Shown here one piece after another: positions 2 to 25,897 of a DNA stretch of 32,000 bases (the first letter of the stretch is position 1; every line of letters starts with the position of its first letter). Below the pieces are notes generated by a model. It searched no databases and had not been told where the DNA came from. It worked only from the letters and a program-made list of their open reading frames with translations. Position numbers and translations under genes: made by a program. Location of the stretch: NCBI RefSeq assembly GCF_000022265.1, contig NC_011979.1, forward strand, positions 2,700,001 to 2,732,000, in the 5' to 3' direction. The DNA is from Geotalea daltonii FRC-32 (GTDB lineage Bacteria; Desulfobacterota; Desulfuromonadia; Geobacterales; Geobacteraceae).

Positions 2-445
2 AAATATGCTTTGAAAGCTCTTATATACCTTTCCCGGACCAAAAAGGGAGAGCCTGTACTCATTGCCGATCTGGCAGAAGACGAGAAAATTCCCAAGAAA
101 TTCCTGGAGTTGATTCTACTTACATTGAAAAACAACGGCATTCTCCACAGCCGCAAGGGAAAGGGGGGAGGGTACTCCTTGGGCAAACTGCCCAGGGAAA
201 TAAGTATGGGCAGTGTCATCAGGATGTTGGAAGGGCCGTTGGCGCCTGTACCGTGTGTCAGTGAAACAGCCTATTCAAAATGTACCGAATGCGAGGATGA
301 GACTACCTGTGGAATAAGGCTGGTTATGAAAGATGTGCGTGACGCAATTACCCAGATCCTCGATCACACAACTTTGCAGGATGTTTTAGAACGTACGGAA
401 AGGGCAGCACTGCTGGAAAAAGGTGTTTTGAATTACGTGATATAA
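2..445 (+). CDS. Rrf2-family (IscR/CymR-like) transcriptional regulator, 5' end cut by window edge
   Basis: The frame is open from the window edge and reads [11 protein letters not shown]..., the N-terminal wHTH helix typical of Rrf2 proteins. TTG at 11 is therefore not the real start. The C-terminal half has 4 Cys ([21 protein letters not shown]), plausible Fe-S ligands. Stop TAA at 443-445. Confidence 0.85.
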
Positions 446-504: not shown

Positions 505-1512
505 ATGATCAGAATCAAGATGGCTGCAATTTTTGCGGGATTGGCCCTTGCTTTGCCTGGTGGTGCACTGGCGGAGGTAAACCTCTTGAACGTATCCTAT
601 GATCCCACCAGGGAACTGTATCAAGAGTACAACGCTGCTTTTTCCAGATATTGGAAAGGCAAAACAGGCCAGGATGTGACATTCAAGCAATCCCATGGCG
701 GCTCCGGCAAGCAGGCACGTGCTGTCATCGATGGTCTTGAGGCGGACGTGGTCACATTGGCTTTGGCTTACGACATCGATCAGATCCACGACAAGGCAAA
801 GCTGATTCCTGAAAACTGGCAGAAGCGCCTGCCCAACAACAGTGCCCCGTATACATCCACCATCGTTTTCCTGGTGCGCAAGGGCAACCCGAAAAAGATC
901 AAAGACTGGAATGATCTGGTCAAGCCTGGCGTCTCCATAATCACTCCCAATCCGAAAACTTCAGGCGGTGCCCGCTGGAATTATCTTGCTGCCTGGGCCT
1001 ATGCGCTTAAACAAAAGGGTGGCACTGATGTAAAGGCAAAGGAGTTTGTCGGTACACTCTTCAGGAATGTACCGGTTCTGGATTCGGGTGCCAGGGGATC
1101 AACAACCACTTTTGTGCAACGGGGTATCGGCGATGTTCTTCTGGCATGGGAAAATGAAGCTTTTCTTGCTGTCAATGAGCTGGGTAAGGACAAGTTTGAA
1201 ATAGTCGTTCCATCACTAAGCATTCTTGCCGAACCGTCGGTGAGCATTGTTGACAAGGTGGTTGATAAGAAGGGTACGCGCAAGGTTGCAGAAGAATATC
1301 TGAAATACCTGTACTCCAGGGAAGGCCAAGAGATCGCTGCCAATAACTATTACCGTCCACGGGATAAAAAAGTTGCAGCAAAATACGCCAAGGCTTTCCC
1401 CAAAGTGAAGCTTTTTACCATAGACGATGTCTTTGGTGGGTGGCGGAAAGCGCAATTGACACATTTTGCTGATGGTGGGGTCTTTGACCAGATTTACATA
1501 CCTACGAAATGA
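505..1512 (+). CDS. sbp: Sulfate/thiosulfate ABC-transporter periplasmic binding protein (Sbp/CysP family)
   Basis: 335 aa with a signal peptide (..[12 protein letters not shown]). Recognised Sbp/CysP blocks: [62 protein letters not shown] at 491-496. No cysTWA permease/ATPase genes follow. Confidence 0.9.
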
Positions 1513-1560: not shown

Positions 1561-1725
1561 ATGGGTGATGGTGGAGTCAACGGGACGCAGGAACAATGGA
1601 ACGTGGAGTTGGAGCGTAAAATTCGTAATGCGCTGCAGTCAATTAAATTCGGGACCGTGACTCTTGTGATTCAGGACGGCAAGGTAATTCAAATCGACAA
1701 GAACGAAAAAATCCGGCTGACCTGA
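1561..1725 (+). CDS. YezD/DUF2292-family small protein (54 aa), not in the supplied ORF track
   Basis: Hand translation: MGDGGVNGTQEQWNVELERKIRNALQSIKFGTVTLVIQDGKVIQIDKNEKIRLT*. The core IKFGTVTLVIQDGKVIQIDKNEKIRL matches the DUF2292 signature as I remember it. GAGGAGG RBS at 1546-1552, 8 nt before the ATG. Confidence 0.7.
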   Translation: MGDGGVNGTQEQWNVELERKIRNALQSIKFGTVTLVIQDGKVIQIDKNEKIRLT

Positions 1726-1774: not shown

Positions 1775-2602
1775 ATGGCAGAACATATTATTGTTGTAGG
1801 CAAGGGGGGGGTAGGTAAATCCACCACTTCTGCTAATCTGGCTGCAGCTTTGGCGGAGGCCGGGCATCGGGTCGTCTTGATCGGTTATGATCCCCGTTGG
1901 AGCGCAACCGCCACCCTGCGTGGCACCTCGCCTCTGCTGCCGGTTCCTGAATGGCAGAACGGAGACGTGGTTCCCCATTATGCTGTCGGTTTCAAGGGAG
2001 CCCTCTGCATAGAAGCAGGGGAGCTTACCATTGAGGGGGAAACTTCCCGTAGTGCGGAACTCCTGTACCACCCGCTATTAGTACGGCATCGTCCCAATTT
2101 TATAGTTCATGATGTGGCATGGGAACCGGGGGCTTCCTTCTTGTTGCCGCCTGCTTCTGAAGGTGTGCCAAGGCTTCTGGTGGTCACATCGGGGGACATG
2201 ACGTCAATCAATGTCGTTAATGAACTCTTCAGTTGGTTGAATACTGTGGCATCAAGCAATTGCCGTTTTAGTGGGGTAGTGATCAATAATCTGAAGGGAC
2301 CTCTCTATGAATCGATCATTTCCGATTTTGTCTCCAGGACCGGCACTGTCGTTATGGCCAGTGTCCCCCATTCCGTAATGGTATCGGTGAGTGATTTTTA
2401 TAACCAGACTTTGATCGAGGCCGCTCCCTGGTCACATAATGCCTATGCCTACCGCAAATTGGCACGCCAGATCGAAGATTCTGCCGTGGTTCCCCGGCCG
2501 GTTTATCTCAACGGAGAAGAACTTGCAAATTGGGCAAGGAAGTGGGGAGAAATAATTTCAGAACTGGAGACAGGGGTAGTAAGGGACGGTTCAAGCATAT
2601 GA
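1775..2602 (+). CDS. Divergent NifH/BchL-family ATPase paralog lacking both [4Fe-4S] cysteine ligands
   Basis: P-loop GKGGVGKST is present. The family-specific C-terminus (ELANWARKWGEIISELETGVVR) is shared with the canonical paralog at 3923. Where that paralog has GVGCAGRG and DVVCGGF, this one has TIEGETSRS and AWEPGASF. I prefer the start at ATG 1775 (GGAGG at 1765-1769, 5-nt spacing) over ATG 1763. Confidence 0.8.
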   Translation: MAEHIIVVGKGGVGKSTTSANLAAALAEAGHRVVLIGYDPRWSATATLRGTSPLLPVPEWQNGDVVPHYAVGFKGALCIEAGELTIEGETSRSAELLYHPLLVRHRPNFIVHDVAWEPGASFLLPPASEGVPRLLVVTSGDMTSINVVNELFSWLNTVASSNCRFSGVVINNLKGPLYESIISDFVSRTGTVVMASVPHSVMVSVSDFYNQTLIEAAPWSHNAYAYRKLARQIEDSAVVPRPVYLNGEELANWARKWGEIISELETGVVRDGSSI

Positions 2603-2658
2603 CAGGTGACAGCTCATTGCATCAGATCCTGTGGTGGAATTGGGCAGCATAAAAAAGC

Positions 2659-2708
2659 TTGACAATAAAATCTTTTTCCGTTATTAATCTATCTAAAAGA
2701 TAGACTAA
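2659..2708 (+). promoter_or_regulatory. Sigma70-type promoter plus palindromic operator upstream of the NifB-like gene
   Basis: -35 TTGACA (2659-2664), 17-nt spacer, -10 TATTAA (2682-2687). Operator TTAATCTAT (2684-2692)-N7-ATAGACTAA (2700-2708) has the same 9-7-9 architecture as the site at 459-485. Confidence 0.6.
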
Positions 2709-2728
2709 TAAGTTTAATCAATTTCAAA

Positions 2729-2781
2729 GGCTCACTGGACAAACCGGAGGCCAAGGATATTTTCCTTGGCCTCTTTTTTTT
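2729..2781 (+). terminator. Leader hairpin module copy A: small hairpin plus intrinsic-terminator-like stem and T8, between promoter and start codon
   Basis: The small stem is CTGG-acaaa-CCGG (one G-U pair). The 11-bp stem is GAGGCCAAGGA (2747-2757) / TCCTTGGCCTC (2763-2773) with a 5-nt loop, then T8 (2774-2781). The leader contains no ATG, so it is not a leader-peptide attenuator. Confidence 0.55.
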
Positions 2782-2802
2782 CAGCAACGGAGGGGGATAC
2801 CC

Positions 2803-3678
2803 ATGGCGAGTACATGCTCGGGCAGGAACAACATTCAGGGTCATCCCTGTTTCGGCGGCAACAGACACAAAAATGGCCGGATTCATCTGGCTGTGGCACC
2901 TCGCTGCAACATACAGTGTGGTTATTGCACCCGCAGGCATGACTGCGTCAATGAGTCCCGCCCTGGCGTTACCAGCCGGATCCAGACGCCGCAGGAAGCT
3001 CTTGAGACCGTACGTGCCGTCATGAAAAACGACTTGAGCGATATTATCAAGGTGGTCGGTATAGCAGGCCCAGGGGACCCCCTGGCCAACGAAGAGACAT
3101 TCGAGACCTTTCGGCTGGTCGGGGAAGAGTTTCCTCAGCTGATCAAATGTCTGAGCACCAATGGGCTGCTTCTCCCGGAGTCATTGGATAGTCTTGCCGA
3201 ACTCGGCCTTGGCAGCCTTACGGTAACGATCAATGCCATAGATCCGGTGATCGCCGGACGGATTTACAAGCATGTCCTGTACCAGGGCAAACGATATAGC
3301 GGCAGAGAAGGAGGCGAGCTGATCATCTCCAGACAGTTTGCCGGTGTAGAAAGGGCGGTTGAACTGGGCCTGACCGTGAAGGTGAACAGTGTCCTGATTC
3401 CAGGCGTGAATGAGCAGCAGATCGGACTCATAGCAGAAAGGATCAAAAAATCAGGGGCATTCGTCATGAATGTCATGCCCCTTATACCCCAGGCGGACTT
3501 TGCCCACATTGTTCCACCTTCACCCGAGGAGCTTGAACTGGTATGCACCGCCAACGAAAAAATCATCGGCCAGTTCCGCCATTGTCGGCAATGCCGCGCA
3601 GATGCCATCGGGCTCATAGGGCAGGACAGTCAGGGCGCCGACAGCGGCTGTTCCATAAGCCAATTGGCCGTCGTCTGA
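2803..3678 (+). CDS. NifB-like radical SAM protein (SAM domain only, no fused NifX domain)
   Basis: 291 aa. Motifs: HPCF, APRCNIQCGYCTR (CxxxCxxC radical-SAM), ESRPGV, GIAGPGDPLAN, LSTNGLLLP, TVTINAIDP, KVNSVLIPGVN, HCRQCRADAIG. All are classic NifB blocks. GGAGGGGG RBS at 2790-2797. Confidence 0.9.
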   Translation: MASTCSGRNNIQGHPCFGGNRHKNGRIHLAVAPRCNIQCGYCTRRHDCVNESRPGVTSRIQTPQEALETVRAVMKNDLSDIIKVVGIAGPGDPLANEETFETFRLVGEEFPQLIKCLSTNGLLLPESLDSLAELGLGSLTVTINAIDPVIAGRIYKHVLYQGKRYSGREGGELIISRQFAGVERAVELGLTVKVNSVLIPGVNEQQIGLIAERIKKSGAFVMNVMPLIPQADFAHIVPPSPEELELVCTANEKIIGQFRHCRQCRADAIGLIGQDSQGADSGCSISQLAVV

Positions 3679-3713: not shown

Positions 3714-3893
3714 ATGACGCAAGTTCCTGTAATCATTAGAAAATGTTCGGATTCCCTGCCAGAGGGGGCACTGGACACGCTGGCCGAAATGGTAAAAGGG
3801 GTGCGCTATGGGTCCATCACCCTGGTGGTGCAGAACGGCAGGTTGGCACAGATAGACAAGACAGAGAAGTTTCGGTTGAGCAAGGCACAATAA
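3714..3893 (+). CDS. YezD/DUF2292-family small protein (59 aa), not in the supplied ORF track
   Basis: Hand translation: [59 protein letters not shown]. It has the same core as the 1561 ORF ([26 protein letters not shown]). Stop TAA at 3891-3893. Confidence 0.7.
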
Positions 3894-3922: not shown

Positions 3923-4801
3923 ATGTCCCAGAAAAAAGTAAAAACCATTGCAATCTACGGTAAAGGAGGAATCGGCAAATCGACGACCACCTCAAACATC
4001 ACGGCAGCCCTGTCGACACTGGGTCTCAAGGTGATGCAGATCGGCTGCGACCCCAAGAGCGATTCCACCACAACCTTGAGGGGAGGGGGCTACATACCGA
4101 CCATCCTTGATACGCTCAGGGACAAGAAGTCGGTCAAATCCAACGAAATCATCTTCGATGGCTTCAATGGAATCTATTGCGTAGAAGCAGGCGGTCCAGC
4201 CCCTGGAGTAGGCTGTGCCGGCCGCGGCATCATCACTTCGGTGGAACTTCTCAAGCAGCTCAGAGTCTTCGACGAACTGGACCTGGACGTGGTGGTCTAT
4301 GACGTTCTGGGGGACGTCGTATGCGGCGGGTTTGCGGTACCGATCAGGGAAGGGATTGCCGATCATGTCTTTACCGTTTCTTCATCCGACTTCATGGCCA
4401 TCTATGCCGCCAACAACCTTTTCAAGGGGATCCAGAAATATTCCAATAACGGCGGCGCCCTCCTTGGCGGCGTTATCGCCAACTCCGTCAACACCGGCTA
4501 TGCCAAAGAGATCATAGACGATTTCGTCACCCAGACAAAAACCCAGGTGATCGAGTACGTGCCCCGATCGGTCACGGTCACCCAGAGCGAGCTGCAGGGC
4601 AAAACCACCATCGAAGCCTTCCCCGAGTCCGAGCAGGCAAAGGTTTACCGGGGCCTGGCCCAGAAGATCTACGATCACACCGAATCAAAGGTTCCGACAC
4701 CCCTGAACGACAAGGAACTCCATGAGTGGGCCTTCAAATGGGCCGATACCCTGCTTGCCATGGAGACCGGAGAAGTCCGCAGCAAAGCAGCGAATATTTA
4801 A
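3923..4801 (+). CDS. Canonical NifH-like Fe-protein (nitrogenase-like reductase component)
   Basis: Motifs: [39 protein letters not shown] (Cys97 equivalent), [15 protein letters not shown] (Cys132 equivalent). The true start is ATG 3923 (AAAAGGAG at 3907-3914). The 60-aa N-terminal extension in the ORF track (from 3743) overlaps the yezD-like ORF and is rejected. Confidence 0.9.
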
Positions 4802-4836: not shown

Positions 4837-5763
4837 ATGGGACGCATTTACAACAATTTAACTGACCTTATCGGCGGAACACCGCTACTTCATCTGCACC
4901 GGCTGGGCAAAGGGCTCGGCGCCGATATTATCGCAAAGCTTGAATCCTTCAACCCCGGCGGCAGCGTCAAAGACCGCATCGGCTTCTCCATGATCAAGGC
5001 CGCCGAAGAAAAAGGGCTGTTGAAAAAAGACTCGGTCATTATCGAGCCAACCAGCGGCAATACCGGCATAGCCCTGGCCTTTGTCGCCGCCGCCCGCGGT
5101 TATCGGCTGATCCTGACCATGCCCGACACCATGAGCATTGAAAGGCGGAACCTGCTCAGGGCCTACGGTGCGGAACTCGTATTGACACCAGGCGCCAAGG
5201 GAATGAAAGGAGCCATCGAGGCGGCAGATGAGTTGGCAGCCACTACTCCCAATTCATTCGTCCCACAGCAGTTCAAGAATCCGGCGAATCCCGCCATTCA
5301 CAGAGCCACCACAGCCGAAGAAATATGGGCTGATACCGACGGCAAGATCGACATCCTTGTTGGAGGCGTCGGTACCGGCGGCACCGTCACCGGTGTCGGC
5401 GAAGTCCTGAAGGAGCGCAAACCCGGCTTGCAGGTGATCGCAGTAGAACCATTCGATTCGCCGGTATTGTCCGGAGGAACCCCCGGTCCCCACAAAATCC
5501 AAGGTATCGGCGCCGGTTTTATCCCGGAGGTGCTCAATCAGTCAGTCGTCAACGAGGTCTACAAGGTCCGCAACGAAGAGGCATTCCTGACCGGAAGACG
5601 ACTTGCCCGGGAAGAGGGGCTTCTGGTGGGAATTTCCGGTGGTGCTGCAGCCTTCGCCGCTTTGCAGATTGCTGCCCGGCCGGAGAATGCCGGCAAAAAG
5701 ATCGTGGTGGTCCTCCCCGATACGGGCGAACGCTACCTTTCCACACCGCTTTTCGAAGAGTAG
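4837..5763 (+). CDS. cysK: Cysteine synthase A (O-acetylserine sulfhydrylase, PLP-dependent)
   Basis: 308 aa. Motifs: [20 protein letters not shown] (PLP lysine), [42 protein letters not shown] upstream. Confidence 0.95.
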
Positions 5764-5872: not shown

Positions 5873-7387
5873 ATGAGCGAAAAAATTGACCTCAGTACAA
5901 ATAGCTGCCCCAACAGGGAACAGAGGGCAAACGGCGTCAACATTTTTTACGGCAAGGCCACGGAGCTGGTGGCTGACGCCCGTGCCGGAAAACTGAAGCA
6001 TCAAGAGCGGGCGTTTCAGCAGACTTCCGGCTGTATCCTCAACTTCTACCTGACTGTACGCGTCATGACGATCCGCGACGCCGTCATGATCGTCCACGCC
6101 CCGGTTGGCTGTTCGTCTTCCGCACTGGGATACCGGGAGCTGTTCAAGGGGATTCGGAAAGGGCTCGGGGGAATGCCGGAAGATTTCGAGTTCCATTGGC
6201 TCACCACCAACCTGAACGAACGTGATGTGGTGTACGGTGCCGCCGACAAGCTGAAGGCCGCCATTCATGAGGCCCAGAATCGCTACAATCCGAAGGCCAT
6301 CTTCATCATGTCTTCATGCACCTCAGGCATTATCGGCGAGGACATTGACGGTGTAGTGGCCGACATTCAACCGGAGATCTCAGCAACCATCGTTCCTGTC
6401 CATTGCGAAGGAACAAAATCGCGCCTGGTTCAGACCGGATATGACGTATTCTGGCATGCGGTTCTCAAGTACCTGGTGAAGCCACCGAAGAAAAAGCAGC
6501 CTGATCTGGTCAATATCGCCAGCATGTTGTCTTACACCTGGCAGGACAGAATGGAGATCACCCGGTTGCTGGGCAAGGTGGGGCTTCGCGTCAACTTCAT
6601 CCCGGAATTCGCCACTGTCGAGCAGTTTGAACAGCTCTCCGAGGCGGCGGTAACGGCGCCCATGTGTCCTTCCTATACGGATTACCTGTCGCGCGGCCTT
6701 GAGCAGGAATACGGAGTCCCGTTCTTCCTTTATCCTTCGCCGATCGGTATCGCGCACACCGACGAATGGCTGCGGACAATCGCCAAATATACCGGCAAGG
6801 AAAAAGAGGTTGAGGCGCTTATCGCTGAAGAACACGCCACCTGGGTTCCACAGCTGGAAAATATTCAGGGTGAGTTCAAGAGCCTGGCCCCCGAAGGTGA
6901 CAAACTTGATGTGCTCGGCTCCTTGGGACAAGGGCGGCTTCTGACGCAAACACCATTTTTCAACGAGCTTGGCGTCAAGGCAACCGCTGCCATAGTGCAG
7001 GACTTCGATAATCTGGTCCTGGATGAAATGGATAAGATGATCGAGGAAACAGGTGATTTCGATGTGCTGATCAATACTTTCCAGGCGGCAGAGGTCGCCC
7101 ACATTGCCAAGAATCGGGCACCGGACATCGTGCTGAGTTGCCCGTTCCAGGGGAGCGCCTATAAAAGGGACAAGGGGATGACCAGGATACACGCTCTGCG
7201 TGGTGACGCCCGTGAATGGAGCACCCAGGCCGGTTACAAGGGGGCGGTGGCTGCGGGAAATTTCCTGCTTCAGTCCACAAAGAACAAGTCATTTCAGCAG
7301 ACCATGAAGGCCAATACGGAAGAAACTTATACCGACTGGTGGTTTAAGCGGCCAAACCCGGTCTACCTGAAAGAGGAGGGGGCATAG
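5873..7387 (+). CDS. NifD-like subunit of nitrogenase-like enzyme, copy 1
   Basis: Cys-containing blocks sit where NifD has its P-cluster ligands: SGCILN, HAPVGCSS, SSCTSGIIGEDIDG. Cofactor-ligand-like positions are also present: TAPMCPSY and TRIHALRGD. Start taken at ATG 5873 (MSEKIDL), not the upstream alternative start at 5828. Confidence 0.85.
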   Translation: MSEKIDLSTNSCPNREQRANGVNIFYGKATELVADARAGKLKHQERAFQQTSGCILNFYLTVRVMTIRDAVMIVHAPVGCSSSALGYRELFKGIRKGLGGMPEDFEFHWLTTNLNERDVVYGAADKLKAAIHEAQNRYNPKAIFIMSSCTSGIIGEDIDGVVADIQPEISATIVPVHCEGTKSRLVQTGYDVFWHAVLKYLVKPPKKKQPDLVNIASMLSYTWQDRMEITRLLGKVGLRVNFIPEFATVEQFEQLSEAAVTAPMCPSYTDYLSRGLEQEYGVPFFLYPSPIGIAHTDEWLRTIAKYTGKEKEVEALIAEEHATWVPQLENIQGEFKSLAPEGDKLDVLGSLGQGRLLTQTPFFNELGVKATAAIVQDFDNLVLDEMDKMIEETGDFDVLINTFQAAEVAHIAKNRAPDIVLSCPFQGSAYKRDKGMTRIHALRGDAREWSTQAGYKGAVAAGNFLLQSTKNKSFQQTMKANTEETYTDWWFKRPNPVYLKEEGA

Positions 7388-7389
7388 CA

Positions 7390-8715
7390 ATGAGTCAAGC
7401 AAAAGTTGTCGAACTTTATCCCGATATTGCCGAAGCGCCGCGGTATTCCTGTGCCCTTGGCGGAGCTTATGTAACCGCACTTGCAGTCACCCATGCGGCT
7501 CCCATTCTTCATTCGGGTGCCGGATGCGGCCTTGGCCAGCAGTTCGGCCAGAACTATGCCGGCGGCATGAATGCCGCAGGCCGCCATGGCAACACAAGCA
7601 CTCCCTGCTCCTGCCTGGTGGAAGAGCATGTGGTATTCGGTGGAGAGGAGAAACTGCGCGACCTGATTGCATCGACCCTCAAGGTTGTCAAGGCTGACCT
7701 GTTCGCCGTAATTTCCGGCTGTGTTCCTTCCCTCATTGGTGACGATGTCGCGGCAGTGGTGAAAGAATTCAAAGGGCAAACGAATATAATTCATGTGCAA
7801 ACTGCCGGTTTTCTGGGCAATTCCTATCTGGGCTATGAACATTTCTTCGAGGCGGTAGTGGACCAGTTGCTGGCGCCGCTCCCGAAGCAGAAGAAACTTG
7901 TCAATATTTTCGGCATAGTGCCCAGCCAGCATATTCAGTGGAAGGGTCATCTGAGGGTTTTAAAGGCGCTGCTTGGAAAAATCGGCGTAGAGGCCAACAT
8001 CATTTTTACGGAAAAGGACGGTCTTGCGGCCCTGAAAAAGATCCCGGCTGCTGAATTGAACCTTGTCTTTTCACCATGGCTCGGGCTCAAGGTCGTTGAA
8101 AAATTGAAGGAAAAGTTTGAAACCCCATATGAGGTGATTCCTTTTGTGCCGGTAGGACCCCAGGACACTACCAGCTTCCTCAGGCAGATAGGTGAGCTGC
8201 TTCATATCCCGAAGAAGACGATTGAGGCGGTCGTGAAACCAGAGGAATGGGATGCCTACAATACCGCTGAATATTTCGGCGATCTTCTGGTAGTCGGCCT
8301 TCCCAATGCCTATTTCGGTGTGATTGCCGACAGCGGCACGGCCATCGGGCTGACCCGCTACGGCACCAATGAAATCGGTTTGCTTCCGGAGTTGGTGATT
8401 GTCAGCGATAATCCGCCTGAAGATTCGAGGGAGAATATTACTCGATTATTGACTGAGGGGCTGGCCAGCAGTATCAAACCCAAGGTCATTTTTGAGACAG
8501 ATAGTCACAAGATCAAGCTCATCCTGCAAAAGCACACCCTGCAGCTTCTGCTGGGTAGCTCGCTTGAAAAGCATCTGCCAAAGGGAGATGCCGGGTTTTT
8601 AAGCGTATCGTTTCCAACGTTCGACCGGATAGTTCTCGACCGGAGCTACGCCGGTTACCGGGGGGGGCTGAACTTTATTGAAGACGTGGGCGCACAGTTC
8701 TGCGGACCGTTGTAA
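7390..8715 (+). CDS. NifK-like subunit of nitrogenase-like enzyme, copy 1
   Basis: It starts 2 nt after the D1 stop. Blocks YSCALGGAY, HSGAGCG and ISGCVPSLIGDD correspond to the three NifK P-cluster cysteines. Confidence 0.85.
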   Translation: MSQAKVVELYPDIAEAPRYSCALGGAYVTALAVTHAAPILHSGAGCGLGQQFGQNYAGGMNAAGRHGNTSTPCSCLVEEHVVFGGEEKLRDLIASTLKVVKADLFAVISGCVPSLIGDDVAAVVKEFKGQTNIIHVQTAGFLGNSYLGYEHFFEAVVDQLLAPLPKQKKLVNIFGIVPSQHIQWKGHLRVLKALLGKIGVEANIIFTEKDGLAALKKIPAAELNLVFSPWLGLKVVEKLKEKFETPYEVIPFVPVGPQDTTSFLRQIGELLHIPKKTIEAVVKPEEWDAYNTAEYFGDLLVVGLPNAYFGVIADSGTAIGLTRYGTNEIGLLPELVIVSDNPPEDSRENITRLLTEGLASSIKPKVIFETDSHKIKLILQKHTLQLLLGSSLEKHLPKGDAGFLSVSFPTFDRIVLDRSYAGYRGGLNFIEDVGAQFCGPL

Positions 8716-11216: not shown

Positions 11217-11254
11217 CCCCTTCTGCATGCAATCTAAAAGAAGGAGAGTACGGT

Positions 11255-12967
11255 ATGAATTTCAAACTGAAGAAGCTGGTCCCCTTGCTGGCATTGCTGG
11301 TGCTGGTGTCGAGCAGCATCAACGCCTGGTCCGCGGACGATAATGCGTCCGGGCAGGAAGCCACCGCTAACACCACCTCCACTGCCGAAACAACTGCGCC
11401 GGAAAATGCCGCTGGTGAAAGTGGTGCCATTGCCACTACCGCTTCCACTTCTGAAACAGCAGCGCCAGAAAATGCCGCCGGTGAAAATGACACCGTCGCT
11501 GCCACCGCTTCGGAACCGGGCAACGCCGCGGATACTGGGGCGGTGGAGACCCTGCAGGAGCCATTCGACCCGTTCAATGTGATCGTGTACAAGCCACTCT
11601 GGGCTCTTACCTCCGCGATCGGCGATTTCAACCCCATCGGTAAGCACGTTTCAGCTCCCCTTGAGGAGTCAGTCCCGGGGCTACGCGTAAAGGGTTTCAT
11701 CAACAGCATAACGCAGATCAACACTACCTCCACCGATCACAATACGGGCCTTGGGGGAAGAAACAAGGACTGGAGGCTGCAGAAGCAAGAGTTCCGCACC
11801 CAGCTCGAACTCAAATACCAGGCAAATGAGAACATCGAATTCGTCAACGTTAACAATTTCCAGTATGACGGCGCCTACGACTTTCAGGACAGCGACGGCC
11901 TCTACACGGATGGTTCCTCCAACCAGAAATACTATTCCCAGTTCAAACGGATCGTTCGCGAGGCCTATGTCCGCGGTAACTATGGAAACGTCAACTTCAC
12001 CCTTGGCAAGCAGATCGTCAACTGGGGCAAGATGGATGGTAAGGTCATCGATTTCGTCAATGCTGCCGACGGCCGTGACGTTGTAGATTTCCATATCGGT
12101 GATTACGAGTGGCGGGCCATCGGCCAATGGATGGCAAACGTATCGTTGCGACCAACCGAGAACATAACTACCACCTTTCTGTGGAACCCTGATTTCCAAC
12201 CCAATGTGGGGCCTGCGGGAGGTTCGCCGTGGTGGTTTCCTTTCGCTCAATCGCCCGTTTCCAGCGCCCAGCGACCTCCCGAGAGAAATCCTTCCGGTTT
12301 TGACCGGCTCGCGGATAGCGAAGGCGGGGTGCGAGTGGATACGACCATCGGCGCCTTGTCATTGAGTGGAATTTATTACAACGGATTTGATCGTGACGCG
12401 GTTTTCAACACATCAGATAACACTCTCCATCACACCCGCCTCAACCGCTATGGCTACGCGCTCGACTACGGAACCAGTATCTTCGGACAGCGGCTGATCA
12501 TCCGTTCGGAAGCACTCTATTCCCATGGTAAGGCATTCAGTACTTCGGATCCTTCGGCACCTGGCGGGATCGTAAAGAAAGACCAGCTCAAACTTGCCGT
12601 CGCCTTCGAGACCTCCGTGGGCTCGGACGAAAACAAGATCGACATCCTTTATCAGCCGATCTGGACCCGTCAGCTGGGATGGGATAGTCGCACCGGCGCC
12701 AAACTCAACGACCTCCTCCATGTCGTAAACCTGAGCCATTCCGTGCGCAAGACGAACGACAGGCTGAAACTGAGCACTACCGGGTACATTTCGGGGGGAT
12801 CAGGCTATGACGGCCTCAGCTACAACGTCTCGGCAGGATGGAAATTCAATGATTACCTCAAGGCAACGCTGGCCTATAACGATTTCGTCGGCAAAGACGA
12901 CGATATCCCCTGGGGTGCATATAGAAAATGGAAGAACGTGACGCTGGACGTCAAGTACGAGTTCTAA
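11255..12967 (+). CDS. Outer-membrane beta-barrel protein, DUF1302-like
   Basis: Signal peptide (LLALLVLVSSSINA/WS), Thr/Ala/Glu-rich linker, then alternating beta-strand-like sequence ending in the OMP signature ...DVKYEF with a C-terminal Phe. The DUF1302 assignment comes from overall pattern and gene neighbourhood, not from a search. Confidence 0.6.
   Translation: MNFKLKKLVPLLALLVLVSSSINAWSADDNASGQEATANTTSTAETTAPENAAGESGAIATTASTSETAAPENAAGENDTVAATASEPGNAADTGAVETLQEPFDPFNVIVYKPLWALTSAIGDFNPIGKHVSAPLEESVPGLRVKGFINSITQINTTSTDHNTGLGGRNKDWRLQKQEFRTQLELKYQANENIEFVNVNNFQYDGAYDFQDSDGLYTDGSSNQKYYSQFKRIVREAYVRGNYGNVNFTLGKQIVNWGKMDGKVIDFVNAADGRDVVDFHIGDYEWRAIGQWMANVSLRPTENITTTFLWNPDFQPNVGPAGGSPWWFPFAQSPVSSAQRPPERNPSGFDRLADSEGGVRVDTTIGALSLSGIYYNGFDRDAVFNTSDNTLHHTRLNRYGYALDYGTSIFGQRLIIRSEALYSHGKAFSTSDPSAPGGIVKKDQLKLAVAFETSVGSDENKIDILYQPIWTRQLGWDSRTGAKLNDLLHVVNLSHSVRKTNDRLKLSTTGYISGGSGYDGLSYNVSAGWKFNDYLKATLAYNDFVGKDDDIPWGAYRKWKNVTLDVKYEF
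11372..11500 (+). repeat. In-frame tandem duplication (~21 aa x2) in the linker of the DUF1302-like protein
   Basis: TTSTAETTAPENAAGESGAIA followed by TTASTSETAAPENAAGENDTVA. The nucleotide units are similar but not identical. Confidence 0.6.
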
Positions 12968-13024
12968 AAGAAAGCAACCCAGTGCACAAATGGAAATCGG
13001 ACCAACAAAAGAAGGAGATGCGAC

Positions 13025-13996: not shown

Positions 13997-14052
13997 GCTT
14001 TATCTGCTGAAATCATGCGGAAATTCATAAACCGTAGCGAAAGGAGAAAGAA

Positions 14053-15567: not shown

Positions 15568-17283
15568 ATGCATGATAATTTGAGTGAGCTGCCCATAACG
15601 GATGATACACCCATAAACCTTAAGGAAAACACTTGCCCGACCCGTGAACAACGGTTGTCGGTCGCCATAAACGCCTATTACGGTACCATGAGCGATCTGG
15701 TCAAGGGGACTCGTGAAAAGAGCCTCGTTCAGCCGGACCGCTGTTTTGAACAGTCTGGGAACTGCCTTCTGGCTCTTAATGCCCAACGGCTCATCAGCAT
15801 TCGCGATTCCGTGCTCCTGTTTCACTCACCCATAGGGTGTGCAGCAGGCCAGCACAGCAGTCACGAACTCTTTCAGCATATTCCCATCGAGCAGGGGCGA
15901 CCTGCCGATCTGGGTTTTTTCCATGCGGTCAGCACCAATCTGACTGACAGCGATGTGGTTTTCGGCGGCGGCGAGAAGCTGGTCGCCGCCCTCAAGGAAG
16001 CTGACCGGCGCTATTCGCCCCGGGCCATTTTTGTCGTCACCTCCTGTGCCTCCGGTATCATCGGCGACGACCTGGAAGGGGCTGTCAATGAGGCCCAGCC
16101 GCACGTTAAGGCAAAGATCGTCCCCTGTCACACCGAAGGATTCCGTTCCCGTGTAACGCAGACCGGCTACGATGCCTTCTGGCACGGGGTTCTCAAGTAT
16201 CTGGTGCGAAAGGACCTGCCGAGAGAGAAGGATCTGGTGAACGTTACCAACATGTTCTCCTACACCTGGATGGACAAGATCGAAATAAACCGGCTCCTCA
16301 CCAAGCTGGGGCTCAGGGTCAATTTCATACCCGAATTCGCCTCGGTGGAAGATCTGGAGCGGATGGGGGCTGCAGCGGTGACCGCGCCGATCTGCCCGAC
16401 ATTCGCCGACTATCTGATGCGGGGGCTGGATGAGCACTTCGGCGTTCCCTATTTCAACGACGTAATCCCCTTCGGCATCAAAAAGACCGACGAGTGGCTC
16501 CGCAGGATCGCCAGCTATACGGGCAAGGAAAAGGAGGTGGAGGAGCTCATCAAGGAGGAGCACGCCACCTACATCCCGAAGGTGGACAAAATCCGGCAGG
16601 GGTTGGAGGACATCCGCAGGCGGATGGTGGCAAAAGGGACCAAGAAGGAGGGGGAGAAGCTGACCGCCATCGGTGCGGTCGGCCAGGGCCGCGTCATCGG
16701 GCATGCCGTATTCCTGGAAGAGCTGGGTTTGGAAGTCGCAGCTGCTTGCGCCATTGATTACGATTCCCTCATCGCCGATTCCTTTGATTCCCTGGTCAAG
16801 GAAGTGGGTGATTTCATCGTTCTCGTCTCAACTTTCCAGGCTGCTGACTACGCTAATCTCTTTGCCAGGCTCAAGCCGGACCTTTCCCTCCAGGCCCCCT
16901 TCAAGGGGGGTGTAATCAAGACCGCCCACACCATTGGAACCATCCATTGGCTCAGGGGCCACAATCATCCTTCACAGGTTCAAGCCGGTTATGCCGGCGC
17001 CGTCGGATACGGGGATATGGTCCTGCGGAGTTTCCAGAACACTGCACTGACCAAGCTGCTTGCCGACTTCGATGACTCCCCCTACAAGGATTGGTGGTAC
17101 AAAGCCGATCCGCTGCATTATGTGAAGGGAAGGGACGAGATCTTCAAGTCCAACCCTCTAACAATACCGGATGATCCGGATCACGGTCACGAACATGATG
17201 ATCACCGTCATCACGACCACGGCCACACCCACAGCCATGGTCACGACCACGGTCAGGATCATGCTCACGGCCACAAGCATTAA
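15568..17283 (+). CDS. NifD-like subunit, copy 2, with C-terminal His-rich tail
   Basis: Paralog of the 5873 gene; long blocks are identical by eye (LGLRVNFIPEF, AAVTAP.CP, TDEWLR.IA.YTGKEKEVE). Ligand-type blocks: SGNCLLAL, HSPIGCAAG, TSCASGIIGDDLEG, TAPICPTF, TIHWLRGH. The tail is HGHEHDDHRHHDHGHTHSHGHDHGQDHAHGHKH. Confidence 0.85.
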   Translation: MHDNLSELPITDDTPINLKENTCPTREQRLSVAINAYYGTMSDLVKGTREKSLVQPDRCFEQSGNCLLALNAQRLISIRDSVLLFHSPIGCAAGQHSSHELFQHIPIEQGRPADLGFFHAVSTNLTDSDVVFGGGEKLVAALKEADRRYSPRAIFVVTSCASGIIGDDLEGAVNEAQPHVKAKIVPCHTEGFRSRVTQTGYDAFWHGVLKYLVRKDLPREKDLVNVTNMFSYTWMDKIEINRLLTKLGLRVNFIPEFASVEDLERMGAAAVTAPICPTFADYLMRGLDEHFGVPYFNDVIPFGIKKTDEWLRRIASYTGKEKEVEELIKEEHATYIPKVDKIRQGLEDIRRRMVAKGTKKEGEKLTAIGAVGQGRVIGHAVFLEELGLEVAAACAIDYDSLIADSFDSLVKEVGDFIVLVSTFQAADYANLFARLKPDLSLQAPFKGGVIKTAHTIGTIHWLRGHNHPSQVQAGYAGAVGYGDMVLRSFQNTALTKLLADFDDSPYKDWWYKADPLHYVKGRDEIFKSNPLTIPDDPDHGHEHDDHRHHDHGHTHSHGHDHGQDHAHGHKH

Positions 17284-17309
17284 AAGAATATAAAGGAGAT
17301 GCAAATTAC

Positions 17310-18683
17310 ATGACTGCGACAAATGTACTGAAATTTACCGATGAAGACGAGCGCATTGCCGCTCTTGATCCCAAGGACCGTCCCTTGCAGGAGACACCTC
17401 GCCATACGTGCGCCTTGGGCGGCGCGTTTGTGGCAGCTACCGCCGTGTCAGGGGTGATGCCGATCCTCCATTCGGGAGGAGGATGCGGCTGGTCCAATTT
17501 CTTCGGCTTTATCGGCGCCAGCGGCGGCGGGCAGATCGGCGACGGCGGTGCATTGACTACCCCCTGTTCGACCCTGCTGGAAAAGCATGTGGTCTTCGGC
17601 GGTGAGGAAAGGCTGCGCGACCAGATCGCTTCGACCATGGAACTTATGAACGGGGACCTGTTCGTCACGGTGTCGGGTTGTATCCCGGCGCTTATCGGTG
17701 ACGATGTTGAAGGGGTCGTCTCCGAATTCAGGAAACCGGAATACCCTCCCATCATTAACGTCAAATCATCGGGATTCAACGGGACCTCCTACGATGGCTA
17801 CGACCTGTTCCTGGATGCGGTTATCGACCAGTATCTGGAAGAGCGACCGGTCCGGAAAGGCTTGGTAAACATCCTCGGTATCCAGCCCTGCCAGCACATA
17901 TTCTGGAAGGGAGACCTGGATCTTTTCAAGACCAACCTGGATGCCATCGGTCTGGAGACCAACCAGATCTTCGGCGGCAGATACGGTGTTGAAGGGCTGA
18001 AGAATATTCCGGCCGCCCAGTTGAACATTGTCCTCAGTCCCTGGCAGGGTTTGAAAGCCGCGGAAAAACTCAAGGAGAAATACGGCACCCCCTATATCGT
18101 CTATCCTGGGTTGCCCATGGGCCCCAAGGAAATGACCCGCTTTCTGCGTACGGTGGCCGAACATCTGGATGTGGAACAGGAGCGCCTGGATAAATGGATC
18201 AGGAAGCAGACAGAGATTGCCTACGACGACTTCAATCTGATTGCCACGGCTCTATATACCGGGTTTTGCAACGTTCACTTCGCGGTCGTCGCGGAATCGA
18301 ATATGGCCATCGGGTTGGTCAGGTACCTGACCAATGAATGCGGCCTGCTTCCCAGTGTGGTGGTCGTGACCGACAATCCCCCTGCAGAAGTGCGTGACCT
18401 CATCACCGACAGGCTCACCAATGGACTCGAAGGCATAATCGTTCCCGACGTCTACTTCGAGAACGATACCTACCTGATTCACAAGAGACTGACGAAATAC
18501 ACTTTCATGCTCCTTTTCGCCAGCTCCATGGAAAAGTACGCTGCCAGCAAGTACATGGCCGGCCATCACACGATTTCTTTTCCCGCCTTTGACCGGGTTA
18601 TCCTCAAGCGCACCTATGCCGGGTTCGGGGGAGGAAATATCCTCCTGGAAGACCTGTTCAGCAAATTCGCCAGGCCGTTCTAA
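17310..18683 (+). CDS. NifK-like subunit, copy 2
   Basis: Blocks HTCALGGAF, HSGGGCG and VSGCIPALIGDD parallel copy 1. AAAGGAGA RBS upstream. Confidence 0.85.
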   Translation: MTATNVLKFTDEDERIAALDPKDRPLQETPRHTCALGGAFVAATAVSGVMPILHSGGGCGWSNFFGFIGASGGGQIGDGGALTTPCSTLLEKHVVFGGEERLRDQIASTMELMNGDLFVTVSGCIPALIGDDVEGVVSEFRKPEYPPIINVKSSGFNGTSYDGYDLFLDAVIDQYLEERPVRKGLVNILGIQPCQHIFWKGDLDLFKTNLDAIGLETNQIFGGRYGVEGLKNIPAAQLNIVLSPWQGLKAAEKLKEKYGTPYIVYPGLPMGPKEMTRFLRTVAEHLDVEQERLDKWIRKQTEIAYDDFNLIATALYTGFCNVHFAVVAESNMAIGLVRYLTNECGLLPSVVVVTDNPPAEVRDLITDRLTNGLEGIIVPDVYFENDTYLIHKRLTKYTFMLLFASSMEKYAASKYMAGHHTISFPAFDRVILKRTYAGFGGGNILLEDLFSKFARPF

Positions 18684-23100: not shown

Positions 23101-23138
23101 GGCGAAAGCGAAAACAGTATTCCCGGGAGTAAATGAAT

Positions 23139-24167: not shown

Positions 24168-24218
24168 CCTTTCTGCCGGGCCGGCAGAGGCTCGACACCT
24201 TATGGGAGAATGACAGAC

Positions 24219-25795: not shown

Positions 25796-25897
25796 TCGTC
25801 AAACGCTGGTGGGTTTAAATATAGTGTGCTGTCGGCTGGCTCTGCCTTGGCGAAAAATGGGGAAAATCTGGAGCCTTGGCCGACTTCGAGGTATGAG

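What the first reader, a model, noticed from the sequence alone, without database searches (positions are those of the whole stretch)
1775..2602. NifH-family paralog that has lost both [4Fe-4S] ligands but keeps the P-loop and the family C-terminus
Seen: I aligned this protein by eye to the canonical paralog at 3923-4801. GKGGVGKST is intact, and the unusual C-terminal motif (E-L-x-x-W-A-x-K-W....E-T-G-x-V-R) is shared, so the two are true paralogs. [17 protein letters not shown] is replaced by CIEAGELTIEGETSRS, and [15 protein letters not shown] by HDVAWEPGASFLLPP. Switch I is also altered (GYDPRWSAT versus GCDPKSDST).
Established: in NifH/BchL/CfbC homodimers these two Cys (NifH Cys97 and Cys132) hold the bridging cluster that delivers electrons.
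Inference: this protein cannot be an electron-donating Fe protein in the usual way. It could be an ATP-dependent maturation or insertase factor for one of the DK cores, form a heterodimer with the canonical H, or act as a regulatory decoy. A cluster-less NifH-like partner in an Nfl system is not something I know to have been described.
Basis: partly seen in the sequence, partly recalled or inferred. Interest (0 to 1): 0.75.

Follow-up and report, generated by a model that had tools for sequence, protein, structure and literature searches.

The report
Cluster-less MarH-like ATPase paralog family
This Geotalea daltonii gene encodes a conserved relative of the electron-donating 'iron protein' of a nitrogenase-like sulfur-scavenging enzyme that has lost its iron-sulfur cluster site, so it cannot pass electrons and must serve some other, still unknown, role during sulfur starvation.

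Summary
Window 1775-2602 (+) encodes a 275-aa NifH-fold protein, identical to Geotalea daltonii FRC-32 ACM20808.1. Its Walker A motif is intact, but both [4Fe-4S] ligands (NifH Cys97/Cys132) are missing. The cluster loop is shortened and acidic, Switch I and II are altered, and the docking arginines are gone.

It is not a pseudogene. At least 56 orthologue clusters (44-100% identity, mostly Geobacteraceae) share the same losses; some contain 0-1 Cys in total. dN/dS is 0.18-0.34. AlphaFold gives pLDDT 89, and the best structural match is MarH of methylthio-alkane reductase (9FMG, TM 0.8).

The gene sits deep inside a wider radiation of divergent MarH-like paralogs. In that radiation Cys ligands, docking residues and P-loop lysines were lost repeatedly, while the MarH-type C-terminal arm stays nearly invariant.

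Its conserved company is a sulfur-starvation unit, Rrf2-Sbp-DUF2292-degH, often with a second H-type gene in tandem. NflDK is not always nearby. The former cluster and docking face is the least conserved part; the nucleotide core and C-terminal arm are the most conserved.

Best reading: a non-redox, nucleotide-binding, dimer-forming accessory subunit of the sulfur-starvation NFL/organosulfur machinery. The exact partner is unresolved. I found no published description. I rate it a new variant of a known kind.

The parts
1775..2602 (+). degH: 275-aa cluster-less MarH-like P-loop protein (ACM20808.1 / WP_012647537.1)
   Evidence: ORF. 100% match to the G. daltonii protein. Fer4_NifH 102 bits. AlphaFold pLDDT 89, best fold match MarH 9FMG, TM 0.8.
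1799..1825 (+). Walker A / deviant P-loop GKGGVGKST (K10 and K15 equivalents intact)
   Evidence: Most conserved block of the family. The lysines are lost only in some distant members.
1883..1909 (+). Altered Switch I, GYDPRWSAT (D39 kept; K41R; D43S)
2006..2053 (+). Former Cys97 cluster loop, shortened and acidic (CIEAGELTIEGETSRS); Cys97 and Arg100 are gone
   Evidence: pLDDT about 65 here. Low family conservation.
2108..2152 (+). Former Switch II / Cys132 region, HDVAWEPGASFLLPP (D125 kept, D129E, Cys132 to Ala; R140 region to Ser/Ala)
2498..2599 (+). MarH-clade C-terminal arm (P-x-x-L...W-A-x-K-W-G-E-I...E-T-G-V-V-R-D-G-S-S-I-COOH)
   Evidence: W253, W257, E265, G267, G272 and I275 are invariant in 56 orthologues. 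The motif is shared by canonical and degenerate MarH-like proteins but not by NifH.
1561..1725 (+). Small DUF2292 (YezD-like) gene directly upstream of degH
   Evidence: Pfam PF10055, 69.7 bits. The same adjacency is seen in most related loci.
505..1512 (+). Sulfate-binding protein Sbp, upstream in the same unit
   Evidence: NCBIfam NF008022, 572 bits. Sbp precedes degH in 12 related loci.
2..445 (+). Rrf2-family regulator (CymR/IscR-like), 5' end cut by the window edge
   Evidence: Pfam Rrf2, 119 bits. An Rrf2 gene heads the unit in most related loci.
2746..2782 (+). Terminator-like hairpin (12-bp stem) plus U8, between degH and the marB-like gene
   Evidence: RNA fold -27.3 kcal/mol, z = -5.9.
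2803..3678 (+). MarB/NifB-like radical SAM protein (no NifX domain)
   Evidence: TIGR01290, 321 bits over the N-terminal 281 positions.
3714..3893 (+). Second DUF2292 gene, directly upstream of canonical MarH
   Evidence: Pfam PF10055, 60 bits; coordinates.
3923..4801 (+). Canonical MarH-type Fe protein with both Cys ligands, R100 and R140
   Evidence: 476 bits to 9FMG_D. Motifs.
5873..8715 (+). NflD1/NflK1 catalytic-core pair (after cysK at 4837-5763)
   Evidence: Oxidored_nitro domains. Best PDB hit is MarD, 9FMG_A, 241 bits.
15568..18683 (+). Second NflD2/NflK2 pair
   Evidence: Oxidored_nitro domains. Paralogous DNA repeats with the first pair.

Best explanation
Shown:
- The gene encodes a functional, selectively maintained derivative of the MarH (methylthio-alkane reductase Fe protein) lineage.
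- It keeps the NifH fold, the nucleotide-binding core (Walker A with both lysines, and the D39 and D125 equivalents) and the MarH-type C-terminal arm.
- It has lost both [4Fe-4S] ligands, the docking arginines and the docking helix. It therefore cannot deliver electrons.

Inferred:
- It acts as a non-redox, nucleotide-binding subunit that works through NifH-style dimerisation. The dimer could be a homodimer or a heterodimer with another H-type protein (canonical MarH, or a second degenerate paralog where one is encoded next to it).
- It serves as an accessory factor (scaffolding, assembly or regulatory) of the Rrf2-controlled sulfur-starvation machinery. That machinery includes the NFL/Mar-type organosulfur reductases.
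- Its effector surface is not the old cluster face. It is more likely the conserved core, the dimer interface and the C-terminal arm.
For: Conserved loss: 56 orthologue clusters all lack Cys at both ligand positions. One member has no Cys at all and five have a single Cys.

Selection: dN/dS is 0.18-0.34, against 0.03-0.11 for canonical MarH in the same loci.

Fold: pLDDT 89, pTM 0.88, top Foldseek hit MarH 9FMG_D/E at TM 0.80-0.81.

Conservation pattern:
- Highest in the P-loop to Switch I stretch (residues 8-50), residues 133-180, residues 196-230 and the C-terminal residues 250-275.
- Lowest in residues 51-72 and 84-108, the former docking and cluster face.
- K10 (by memory, the lysine that acts in trans across the dimer) and K15 are kept in most members.

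Tandem H-H gene pairs:
- degH-degH2 in L085, L092, L095 and L097
- degH-MarH in L093
- H1(Cys)-H2(Cys-less) in L107

Sulfur-starvation context: the order Rrf2-Sbp-DUF2292-degH recurs, followed by CysK, CysTWA, MetK, MarH/MarB or NifX-like genes.

Same-contig co-occurrence with canonical MarH in the window, L001, L086, L087, L089 and L093, and by matching contig lengths for five further clusters.

Mar expression is known to be induced by sulfate limitation (review PMC13474568).
Against:
- In several loci degH is the only H-type gene within 10 kb: L002, L003, L091 and L094.
- In the window a terminator-like hairpin separates it from marB-marH.
- Walker lysines decay in some orthologues (K15 in 7 of 56, K10 in 6 of 56). 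Nucleotide dependence may therefore not be universal.
- D129E and D43S may abolish hydrolysis. This rests on my memory of A. vinelandii NifH mutants and was not tested.
- Canonical MarH-type genes occur in many genomes with no named degH, so degH is dispensable for basic Mar function.
Confidence: 0.45

Rival explanations
1. Dedicated maturation or insertase chaperone. On this reading NifH's cluster-independent moonlighting role has become a separate protein. degH would dock on apo-NflDK/MarDK and hold it open for P-cluster or L-cluster (MarB product) insertion.
For: - In the window it lies next to the marB-like gene. A degH2-like gene is followed directly by a MarB homologue in L087.
- MarB or NifX-like carrier genes lie within 10 kb in the window, L004, L085, L087, L089, L092, L093 and L097.
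[quoted passage not shown] I saw this title only as a citation; the paper itself was not readable.
Against: - The canonical docking elements are lost: R100, R140, and no helix is predicted in region 50-67 (NifH docking helix). That face is the least conserved part of the family.
- NflDK lies within 10 kb only in the window and L097.
- R. rubrum MarBHDK is active when expressed in R. capsulatus from the marBHDK cluster (Nat Catal 2025, PMC12552129).
Confidence: 0.2
2. A sulfur-starvation function independent of NFL enzymes. For example, a nucleotide-dependent sensor or regulatory partner of the Rrf2 regulator, of DUF2292, or of the sulfate ABC transporter.
For: - The most constant neighbours are Rrf2, Sbp and DUF2292.
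- degH lies inside sbp-...-cysTWA operons in L002, L091 and L094.
- In the window it ends the Rrf2-Sbp-DUF2292-degH unit, before a terminator-like hairpin.
- Related H-like lineages sit in Rrf2-CysK-DUF2292-H-methyltransferase modules with no DK within 10 kb.
Against: - I know of no precedent for a NifH-family protein in transport or transcriptional control.
- Canonical MarH is on the same contig wherever contigs are long enough to tell.
- Gene order in these regulons is fluid, so adjacency to sbp may reflect only co-regulation.
Confidence: 0.2
3. Competitive decoy that occupies the Fe-protein docking site on NflDK and so throttles the enzyme. This would be analogous in outcome to the PadR-family protein MarS.
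For: - It has the same fold as MarH.
- Post-translational inhibition of MarDK by blocking the MarH site is known for MarS (review PMC13474568).
Against: - The docking residues are lost and the docking face is variable and acidic.
- It is encoded alongside the genes it would inhibit and lies in the Rrf2-Sbp sulfur-starvation unit.
Confidence: 0.05
4. It still carries a metal cluster or metal ion, using non-canonical ligands such as the conserved acidic loop or Cys78/Cys163. It would then act as an unusual redox or metal-carrier protein.
For: - Cys78 is conserved in at least 90% of members and Cys163 is common.
- The replacement loop is rich in Glu.
- The sister lineage degH2 has gained a Cys-rich insert.
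Against: - Cys78 aligns with NifH Cys85, which by my memory is a non-ligand core residue.
- Orthologues with 0 or 1 Cys exist: P0039, P0034, P0035, P0043, P0048 and P0055.
- The loop is poorly conserved.
- I could not measure 3D distances, because model coordinates are not exposed.
Confidence: 0.05
5. A decaying relic (pseudogene in progress) of a duplicated marH.
For: - Loss of catalytic residues.
- Non-synonymous rate 4-6 times faster than canonical MarH.
Against: - Intact ORFs of constant length in 56 clusters, down to 44% identity.
- 20 invariant columns.
- dN/dS 0.18-0.34.
- A good ribosome-binding site.
- A confident fold.
Confidence: 0.03

Closest known systems
MarH, Fe protein of methylthio-alkane reductase (R. 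rubrum, PDB 9FMG; North 2020; Lago-Maciel 2025, PMC12552129)
   Same: - Closest by sequence: 140 bits, against about 80 bits for NifH.
- Closest by fold: TM 0.80-0.81.
- Shares the MarH-clade C-terminal W-x3-W...E-x-G...I-COOH arm with the Geobacteraceae and Firmicutes MarH-type proteins; the R. rubrum tail itself diverges after ...IEIER.
- Encoded in the same sulfur-limitation gene neighbourhood, with marB-like and D/K genes.
   Different: - Lacks Cys97 and Cys133, the cluster loop, R100 and R140; no helix is predicted in region 50-67 (NifH docking helix).
- Switch I and II are altered.
- Only about 32-34% identical.
- Evolves 4-6 times faster.
NifH in its non-redox roles (apo-NifH in FeMo-co synthesis and apo-dinitrogenase maturation; Rangaraj et al. 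1997, seen as a citation only)
   Same: An Fe-protein scaffold acting without its cluster, as an assembly factor for a D/K-type partner.
   Different: - That activity belongs to the normal, Cys-containing NifH and presumably uses the normal docking face.
- Here the cluster site and docking residues are genetically deleted.
- No link to DK maturation has been shown.
MarS (PadR-family inhibitor of MarDK; review PMC13474568)
   Same: An accessory protein of the Mar system.
   Different: - Unrelated fold.
- Predicted to bind the MarH docking surface of MarDK.
- degH lacks the docking residues.
SIMIBI-class dimerising ATPases with accessory roles (MinD/ParA, Get3/ArsA, CooC/HypB/UreG, Mrp/NBP35)
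   Same: - Deviant Walker A with a signature lysine.
- Function through nucleotide-dependent dimerisation rather than redox chemistry. This is what degH may have reverted to.
   Different: - degH is unmistakably nested in the NifH/MarH clade.
- It has no CXXC cluster-carrier motif, no membrane-targeting helix and no metal-binding Cys/His motif.
CfbC, BchL/ChlL, BchX and IsrH (other NFL reductase components)
   Same: Same family and fold.
   Different: The reviews I read describe all of these as ATP-dependent reductases, with the two Cys ligands stated for MarH and CfbC. None is reported as naturally cluster-less.

Membership tests
Pfam Fer4_NifH (PF00142) / NifH fold | Significant match to the family HMM and a NifH-like three-dimensional fold | tested here: met
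   102.5 bits against a 25-bit cutoff, covering profile positions 2-257 of 271. Foldseek TM 0.72-0.81 to MarH and NifH structures.
Functional Fe protein (NifH/MarH/BchL/CfbC-type ATP-dependent reductase) | Two Cys per subunit (NifH Cys97, Cys132) ligating the bridging [4Fe-4S] cluster | tested here: not met
   Both are absent in the window protein and in all 56 orthologue clusters.
Functional Fe protein (NifH/MarH/BchL/CfbC-type ATP-dependent reductase) | Walker A GKGG(I/V)GKS(T) with K10 and K15 | tested here: met
   GKGGVGKST at residues 9-17. The lysines are lost in 6-7 of 56 distant orthologues.
Functional Fe protein (NifH/MarH/BchL/CfbC-type ATP-dependent reductase) | Intact Switch I (D39, K41, D43) and Switch II (D125, D129) linking the nucleotide to the cluster | tested here: not met
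   D39 and D125 are kept, but K41R, D43S and D129E are changed and the Switch II tip is rebuilt.
Functional Fe protein (NifH/MarH/BchL/CfbC-type ATP-dependent reductase) | Docking residues for the D/K component (R100, R140; helix 59-67) | tested here: not met
   R100 is deleted with the loop, and R140 is Ala or Ser. No helix is predicted in residues 50-67. The roles of these residues come from my memory of the NifH literature.
NCBIfam nifH equivalog (TIGR01287) and CfbC (NF033200) | Score above the curated cutoff | tested here: not met
   123 bits against 394, and 105 bits against 402.
MarH clade | Closest relatives are MarH-type proteins, and the C-terminal W-x3-W...E-x-G...I-COOH arm is present | tested here: met
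   NJ tree: MarH plus the divergent radiation has 96% bootstrap support.
MarH clade | Acts as electron donor to MarDK with ATP | not testable with these tools
   Biochemistry is required. The sequence argues against it, since there is no cluster site.
Mrp/NBP35/ApbC Fe-S carrier ATPases | C-terminal CXXC motif bridging a transferable cluster | tested here: not met
   No CXXC in the sequence. HMM hits are restricted to the P-loop, residues 5-39.
Pseudogene | Frameshifts or stops, no conservation, dN/dS near 1 | tested here: not met
   Intact ORF; 56 orthologue clusters; dN/dS 0.18-0.34.

The most novel reading that the evidence does not exclude
degH and its sister lineages would be a natural family of cluster-less Fe-protein homologues. 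On this reading they have been sub-functionalised for a non-redox job on nitrogenase-like enzymes. Two forms are conceivable: they pair with a canonical MarH (or with each other) as asymmetric 'half-dead' dimers, or they act as nucleotide-gated chaperones for cofactor or P-cluster insertion under sulfur starvation. Either would be nature's own separation of the Fe protein's chaperone function from its electron-transfer function.
Probability: 0.2. Interest if true: 0.8.

Novelty: new variant of a known kind. Interest (0 to 1): 0.6.

Why it matters
By my reading of the field, Fe proteins of nitrogenase and its relatives are treated as obligate [4Fe-4S] electron donors, and whether their additional assembly roles need the cluster has long been debated.

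A conserved, naturally cluster-less member of the MarH lineage offers a ready-made system for asking what an Fe-protein scaffold can do without redox chemistry. It sits within a wider radiation that has lost, in various combinations, the cluster ligands, the docking residues or the P-loop lysines.

It also shows that genome annotation and nifH-type marker surveys can mislabel non-redox proteins. In the databases this family appears variously as 'nitrogenase iron protein NifH', 'iron-sulfur cluster-binding ATPase' and 'AAA family ATPase'.

Finally, it points to uncharted parts of the anaerobic sulfur-starvation regulon of Geobacteraceae: the DUF2292 genes, and H-like plus methyltransferase modules with no DK nearby.

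Tried and rejected
1. The genome-contig scan with the full-length family alignment was wasted. No true orthologue was returned.

2. A second scan of metagenome contigs, using an alignment trimmed to the C-terminal two-thirds, worked.

3. The pseudogene reading was rejected.

4. Alternative Cys ligands were rejected on alignment grounds and because Cys-free orthologues exist.

5. Canonical DK docking (decoy or classical chaperone) was down-weighted because the docking residues are lost and that face is poorly conserved.

6. Rfam found no riboswitch or RNA family anywhere in the window.

7. The palindrome TCTATCTAAAAGATAGA upstream of the marB-like gene occurs only once in the window, so no shared operator could be defined.

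8. Literature searches found no description of a Cys-less MarH/NifH paralog. I searched by accession numbers, by 'Geobacter daltonii' plus nitrogenase-like, by DUF2292/YezD, and by NifH lacking cysteine ligands.

9. I considered a linker-fused dimer prediction and did not run it.

10. I tried to test whether Geomonas sp. Red32 has NflD or MarH through homologue lists. The result was inconclusive, because the lists are truncated at 120 and clustered.
Full report
**1. Observation**

The window is from Geotalea (Geobacter) daltonii FRC-32. The protein encoded at 1775-2599 is 100% identical to ACM20808.1 / WP_012647537.1 / UniProt B9M028.

The ORF listing reports the ORF as 1763-2602. The ATG at 1775 is the probable start. 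A GGAGG lies 5 nt upstream, and orthologues are 270-281 aa and begin M-x-AEH.

BLASTP against the neighbouring canonical H protein (3923-4798) gives 34% identity over the whole length, E 3e-43.

- GKGGVGKST, residues 9-17
- GYDPRWSAT, residues 37-45
- CIEAGELTIEGETSRS, residues 78-93
- HDVAWEPGASFLLPP, residues 112-126
- the C-terminal ...EELANWARKWGEIISELETGVVRDGSSI

Two independent alignments show no Cys at the NifH Cys97 and Cys132 positions, and a cluster loop shortened by about 6 residues. The second is HMMER against R. rubrum MarH, PDB 9FMG_D.

Pfam Fer4_NifH scores 102 bits for this protein and 342 bits for the canonical paralog. NCBIfam nifH scores 123 bits, below its 394-bit cutoff.

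**2. Gene map of the window**

All genes below are on the + strand.

| Coordinates | Gene |
|---|---|
| 2-445 | Rrf2 regulator, cut at the window edge |
| 505-1512 | Sulfate-binding protein Sbp |
| 1561-1725 | DUF2292 (small gene) |
| 1775-2602 | degH (my working name for the degenerate H gene) |
| 2746-2782 | Terminator-like hairpin plus U8 |
| 2803-3678 | MarB/NifB-like radical SAM |
| 3714-3893 | Second DUF2292 |
| 3923-4801 | Canonical MarH-type Fe protein |
| 4837-5763 | CysK |
| 5873-8715 | NflD1K1 |
| 8886-15498 | MMPL-type transporter, outer-membrane-like protein, BNR/Ycf48-like, DUF1329/LolA-like |
| 15568-18683 | NflD2K2 |
| 19741 onward | NMT1/SsuA-like binding protein, methyltransferase, CbiMQO, CusBA-like |

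The canonical H protein scores 476 bits to R. rubrum MarH. NflD1 has MarD as its best solved relative, but only at 241 bits. NflD1 belongs to a very widespread, highly conserved Nfl group found in Firmicutes, methanogens and Geobacteraceae.

The setting is therefore a sulfur-acquisition NFL cluster of the Mar/Isr kind (PMC12552129, PMC11423573, bioRxiv 10.64898/2026.08.20.746119).

**3. Conserved loss, not decay**

A search of 5.8 billion proteins returned 56 clusters at 44-100% identity and 270-281 aa. Named sources are Geotalea daltonii, G. toluenoxydans, Geotalea sp. SG265, Geomesophilobacter sediminis, Geomonas sp. Red32 and Geobacter MAGs, plus many metagenomes.

- Every one lacks Cys at both ligand positions.
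- Stray Cys near those positions are sporadic.
- One orthologue has no Cys at all, and five have a single Cys.
- The family alignment has 20 invariant and 46 nearly invariant columns.
- dN/dS is 0.18-0.34 for pairs with dS 0.7-1.5.
- Canonical MarH in the same loci shows 0.03-0.11, and degH accumulates non-synonymous change about 4-6 times faster.

Constraint is therefore relaxed but clearly purifying. The pseudogene reading is rejected.

**4. Structure**

AlphaFold2 with the family alignment gives pLDDT 89 and pTM 0.88. Foldseek ranks MarH (9FMG chains D and E, TM 0.80-0.81, 32% identity) above all NifH structures (TM 0.72-0.78).

No helix is predicted in residues 50-67, which is the NifH docking-helix region by my memory of the NifH-MoFe complexes. 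The former cluster loop has pLDDT of about 65.

**5. Which parts are constrained**

Per-column conservation:
- Highest: the P-loop through Switch I (residues 8-50), residues 133-180, residues 196-230, and the C-terminal residues 250-275.
- Lowest: residues 51-72 and 84-108. These formed the docking and cluster face in a real Fe protein.

Feature by feature (residue roles come from my memory of the NifH literature):
- Kept in degH proper: the equivalents of K10, K15, D39 and D125.
- Changed: D129 becomes E.
- Absent: R100 and R140.

In distant orthologues the Walker lysines also decay. K15 is lost in 7 of 56 and K10 in 6 of 56.

The C-terminal motif is P-x-P-[LM]-x4-[LF]-x2-W-[AG]-x2-W-[GA]-[DE]-x-[IL]-x3-E-x-G-x-[VI]-x2-3-[GA]-x-I-COOH. 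It is a signature of the whole MarH clade, including Firmicutes MarH, and is absent from NifH. W253, W257, E265, G267, G272 and I275 are invariant in degH.

**6. degH is one twig of a larger radiation**

A profile search of 1.84 billion representatives and an NJ tree of 65 sequences with 100 bootstraps give this picture:
- Canonical MarH plus a divergent 'MarH-like radiation' form a clade with 96% support.
- The radiation itself has 100% support.
- It contains intermediates that keep both Cys but have already lost R140 (for example 'nitrogenase iron protein 2' of Geobacter sp. OR-1).
- It contains several independent Cys-less lineages.
- It contains a lineage that keeps the Cys but has lost Walker K15 (GKGGAGTTT).
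- degH (100% support) is sister to degH2, a Cys-less lineage with a dead P-loop (GRSGSGVST) and a new Cys-rich insert.

NJ on such long branches is only indicative. Even so, the repeated and combinatorial loss of redox, docking and ATPase motifs, with retention of the C-terminal arm, is robust at the motif level.

**7. Genomic context elsewhere**

I obtained 7 loci by exact-protein look-up and 18 from a metagenome scan with a C-terminal-trimmed alignment. I annotated them by BLASTP against a reference set.

The recurrent order is Rrf2 - Sbp - DUF2292 - (MTase23 / ThiF / MetK) - degH, followed by one of degH2, CysK, CysTWA or MarH-MarB.

- degH lies inside sulfate-transporter operons in L002, L091 and L094.
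- It lies directly after a corrinoid-methyltransferase/RACo operon in L004.
- NflDK lies within 10 kb only in the window and L097.
- A canonical MarH lies within 10 kb in the window, L001, L086, L087, L089 and L093.
- Tandem H-H pairs recur: degH-degH2 (L085, L092, L095, L097), degH-MarH (L093), and H1(Cys)-H2(Cys-less) in L107.
- A DUF2292 gene precedes H-type genes of every kind, including both in the window.
- Canonical MarH-type proteins are far more widespread than degH: several Geobacter and Geomonas species, Pelosinus, Acetivibrio and Heliophilum. degH is therefore an accessory found in a subset of genomes.

In the window, a 12-bp GC-rich hairpin plus U8 (-27.3 kcal/mol, z = -5.9) lies 144 nt after the degH stop and 30 nt before the marB-like start. 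It is preceded by a TTGACA-17-TATTAA promoter-like site and a perfect palindrome. Here degH most likely ends the Rrf2-Sbp-DUF2292-degH transcript.

**8. Mechanism**

Shown: this is a maintained, MarH-derived protein with a NifH fold. It has an intact nucleotide-binding core, no cluster ligands and no canonical docking residues. It cannot be a conventional electron donor.

Inferred: the constrained surfaces are the nucleotide and dimer core and the MarH-type C-terminal arm. The old 'business end' drifts freely. H-type genes often come in tandem pairs with unequal degeneracy.

I therefore favour a non-redox, nucleotide-binding subunit that acts by NifH-style dimerisation, either as a homodimer or as a heterodimer with another H-type protein. 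It would serve as an accessory (assembly or regulatory) component of the sulfur-starvation NFL/organosulfur machinery. My confidence in this is about 0.45.

Rivals:
- A DK maturation chaperone, 0.2. It is attractive because of the MarB and NifX-like neighbours and the apo-NifH precedent cited. It is weakened by the lost and variable docking face.
- An NFL-independent regulatory or transport-linked role with Rrf2, DUF2292 or the Sbp/CysTWA transporter, 0.2.
- A decoy inhibitor, 0.05.
- A cryptic metal site, 0.05.
- A relic, 0.03.

**9. Comparison with known systems, and novelty**

The closest known protein is MarH. degH fails the defining test of a functional Fe protein (cluster ligands, switch integrity, docking residues) but passes the fold and clade membership tests.

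Known Mar regulators are SalR and the PadR-type MarS. Neither resembles degH.

The recent reviews and primary papers I could read describe the NFL 'H' components as Cys-ligated reductases. They do not mention a Cys-less paralog. Accession-based and keyword searches also found nothing.

Databases label the family inconsistently, as 'iron-sulfur cluster-binding ATPase', 'nitrogenase iron protein NifH' and 'AAA family ATPase'.

I rate it a new variant of a known kind, with interest 0.6. The finding is solid and would surprise NFL specialists, but the function is unresolved.

**10. Limits**

- No complex prediction, no coordinates and no experiments were available.
- The genome-wide scan was lost to a generic pattern, so co-occurrence statistics rest on about 15 non-redundant loci.
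- Residue roles in NifH (K10, K15, D39, D43, D125, D129, R100, R140, Cys85) are from memory of the literature, not from a tool.

Noticed in passing
window 1561-1725 and 3714-3893 (+): Two small DUF2292 (YezD-like) genes of 54 and about 59 aa lie directly upstream of degH and of canonical MarH. They fall below the 80-aa ORF cutoff I used for the ORF listing. Across related loci a DUF2292 gene precedes H-type genes of every kind: canonical, intermediate and Cys-less. This suggests a functional pairing that I found nowhere described.
   Followed up: partly
window 2655-2802 (+): The intergenic region between degH and the marB-like gene holds three features. There is a promoter-like TTGACA-17-TATTAA site at 2659-2687. 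There is a perfect 17-nt palindrome, TCTATCTAAAAGATAGA, at 2688-2704, unique in the window. There is a very stable hairpin plus U8 at 2746-2782 (-27.3 kcal/mol, z = -5.9). The hairpin could be the terminator of the upstream unit or a leader attenuator of the marB operon. Rfam has no match.
   Followed up: partly
L085 11016-11855 (also L092, L095, L096, L097, L101); P0110, P0112, P0056: A second Cys-less MarH-like lineage (degH2) lies immediately downstream of degH in several metagenomic loci. Its Walker A has lost the P-loop lysine (GRSGSGVST). It has gained a Cys-rich insert (for example CGNACKDLCNDTKYHC) in the former docking-helix region. This could be a new metal site.
   Followed up: partly
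L102-L105 (metagenome loci): Another MarH-like lineage keeps both cluster Cys but has lost Walker lysine K15 (GKGGAGTTT). It sits in a CysA-DUF2292-H-CysK arrangement. This is the reverse degeneration of degH.
   Followed up: no
L106 (Geobacter sp. OR-1) and L107: The module Rrf2-CysK-DUF2292-H-like(-H-like2)-small methyltransferase recurs with no NifD/K-like gene within 10 kb. In L107 it is followed by ThiS-ThiF-JAB-sulfite-reductase-like-TusA. These H-like proteins may serve partners other than DK cores.
   Followed up: no
window 15568-17283 (+), C-terminus: NflD2 ends in a long His-rich tail (…DHGHEHDDHRHHDHGHTHSHGHDHGQDHAHGHKH), which suggests metal binding. A CbiMQO Ni/Co-type uptake system (23133-25795) and a CusBA-like efflux pair (25826-30519) lie downstream.
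   Followed up: no
window 8886-15498 (+): A four-gene block lies between the two NflDK pairs: an MMPL/RND-type transporter, a 570-aa protein with a signal-peptide-like N-terminus and no Pfam hit, a BNR/Ycf48-like beta-propeller, and a DUF1329/LolA-like protein. It may be an envelope uptake system for the (organosulfur?) substrate.
   Followed up: no
window 11360-11491 (+): A 66-nt tandem duplication (76% identical) lies inside the outer-membrane-like gene. It encodes an Ala/Thr/Glu-rich repeat near the N-terminus.
   Followed up: no
P0120, P0121, P0135, P0136, P0142 (about 570-600 aa); P0128, P0145, P0164 and others: The representative search also returned natural fusions. Some have two complete NifH-like domains in one chain, both with Cys ligands (covalent pseudo-dimers). 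Others are NifH-NifD/K-like fusions of 730-1080 aa.
   Followed up: no
window 2-445 (+): The Rrf2 regulator that heads the unit has a Cys-rich segment ([20 protein letters not shown]). That is more Cys than the three-Cys pattern I recall for IscR/NsrR. It may be an Fe-S or redox-sensing regulator of the sulfur-starvation regulon. The gene is truncated by the window edge.
   Followed up: no
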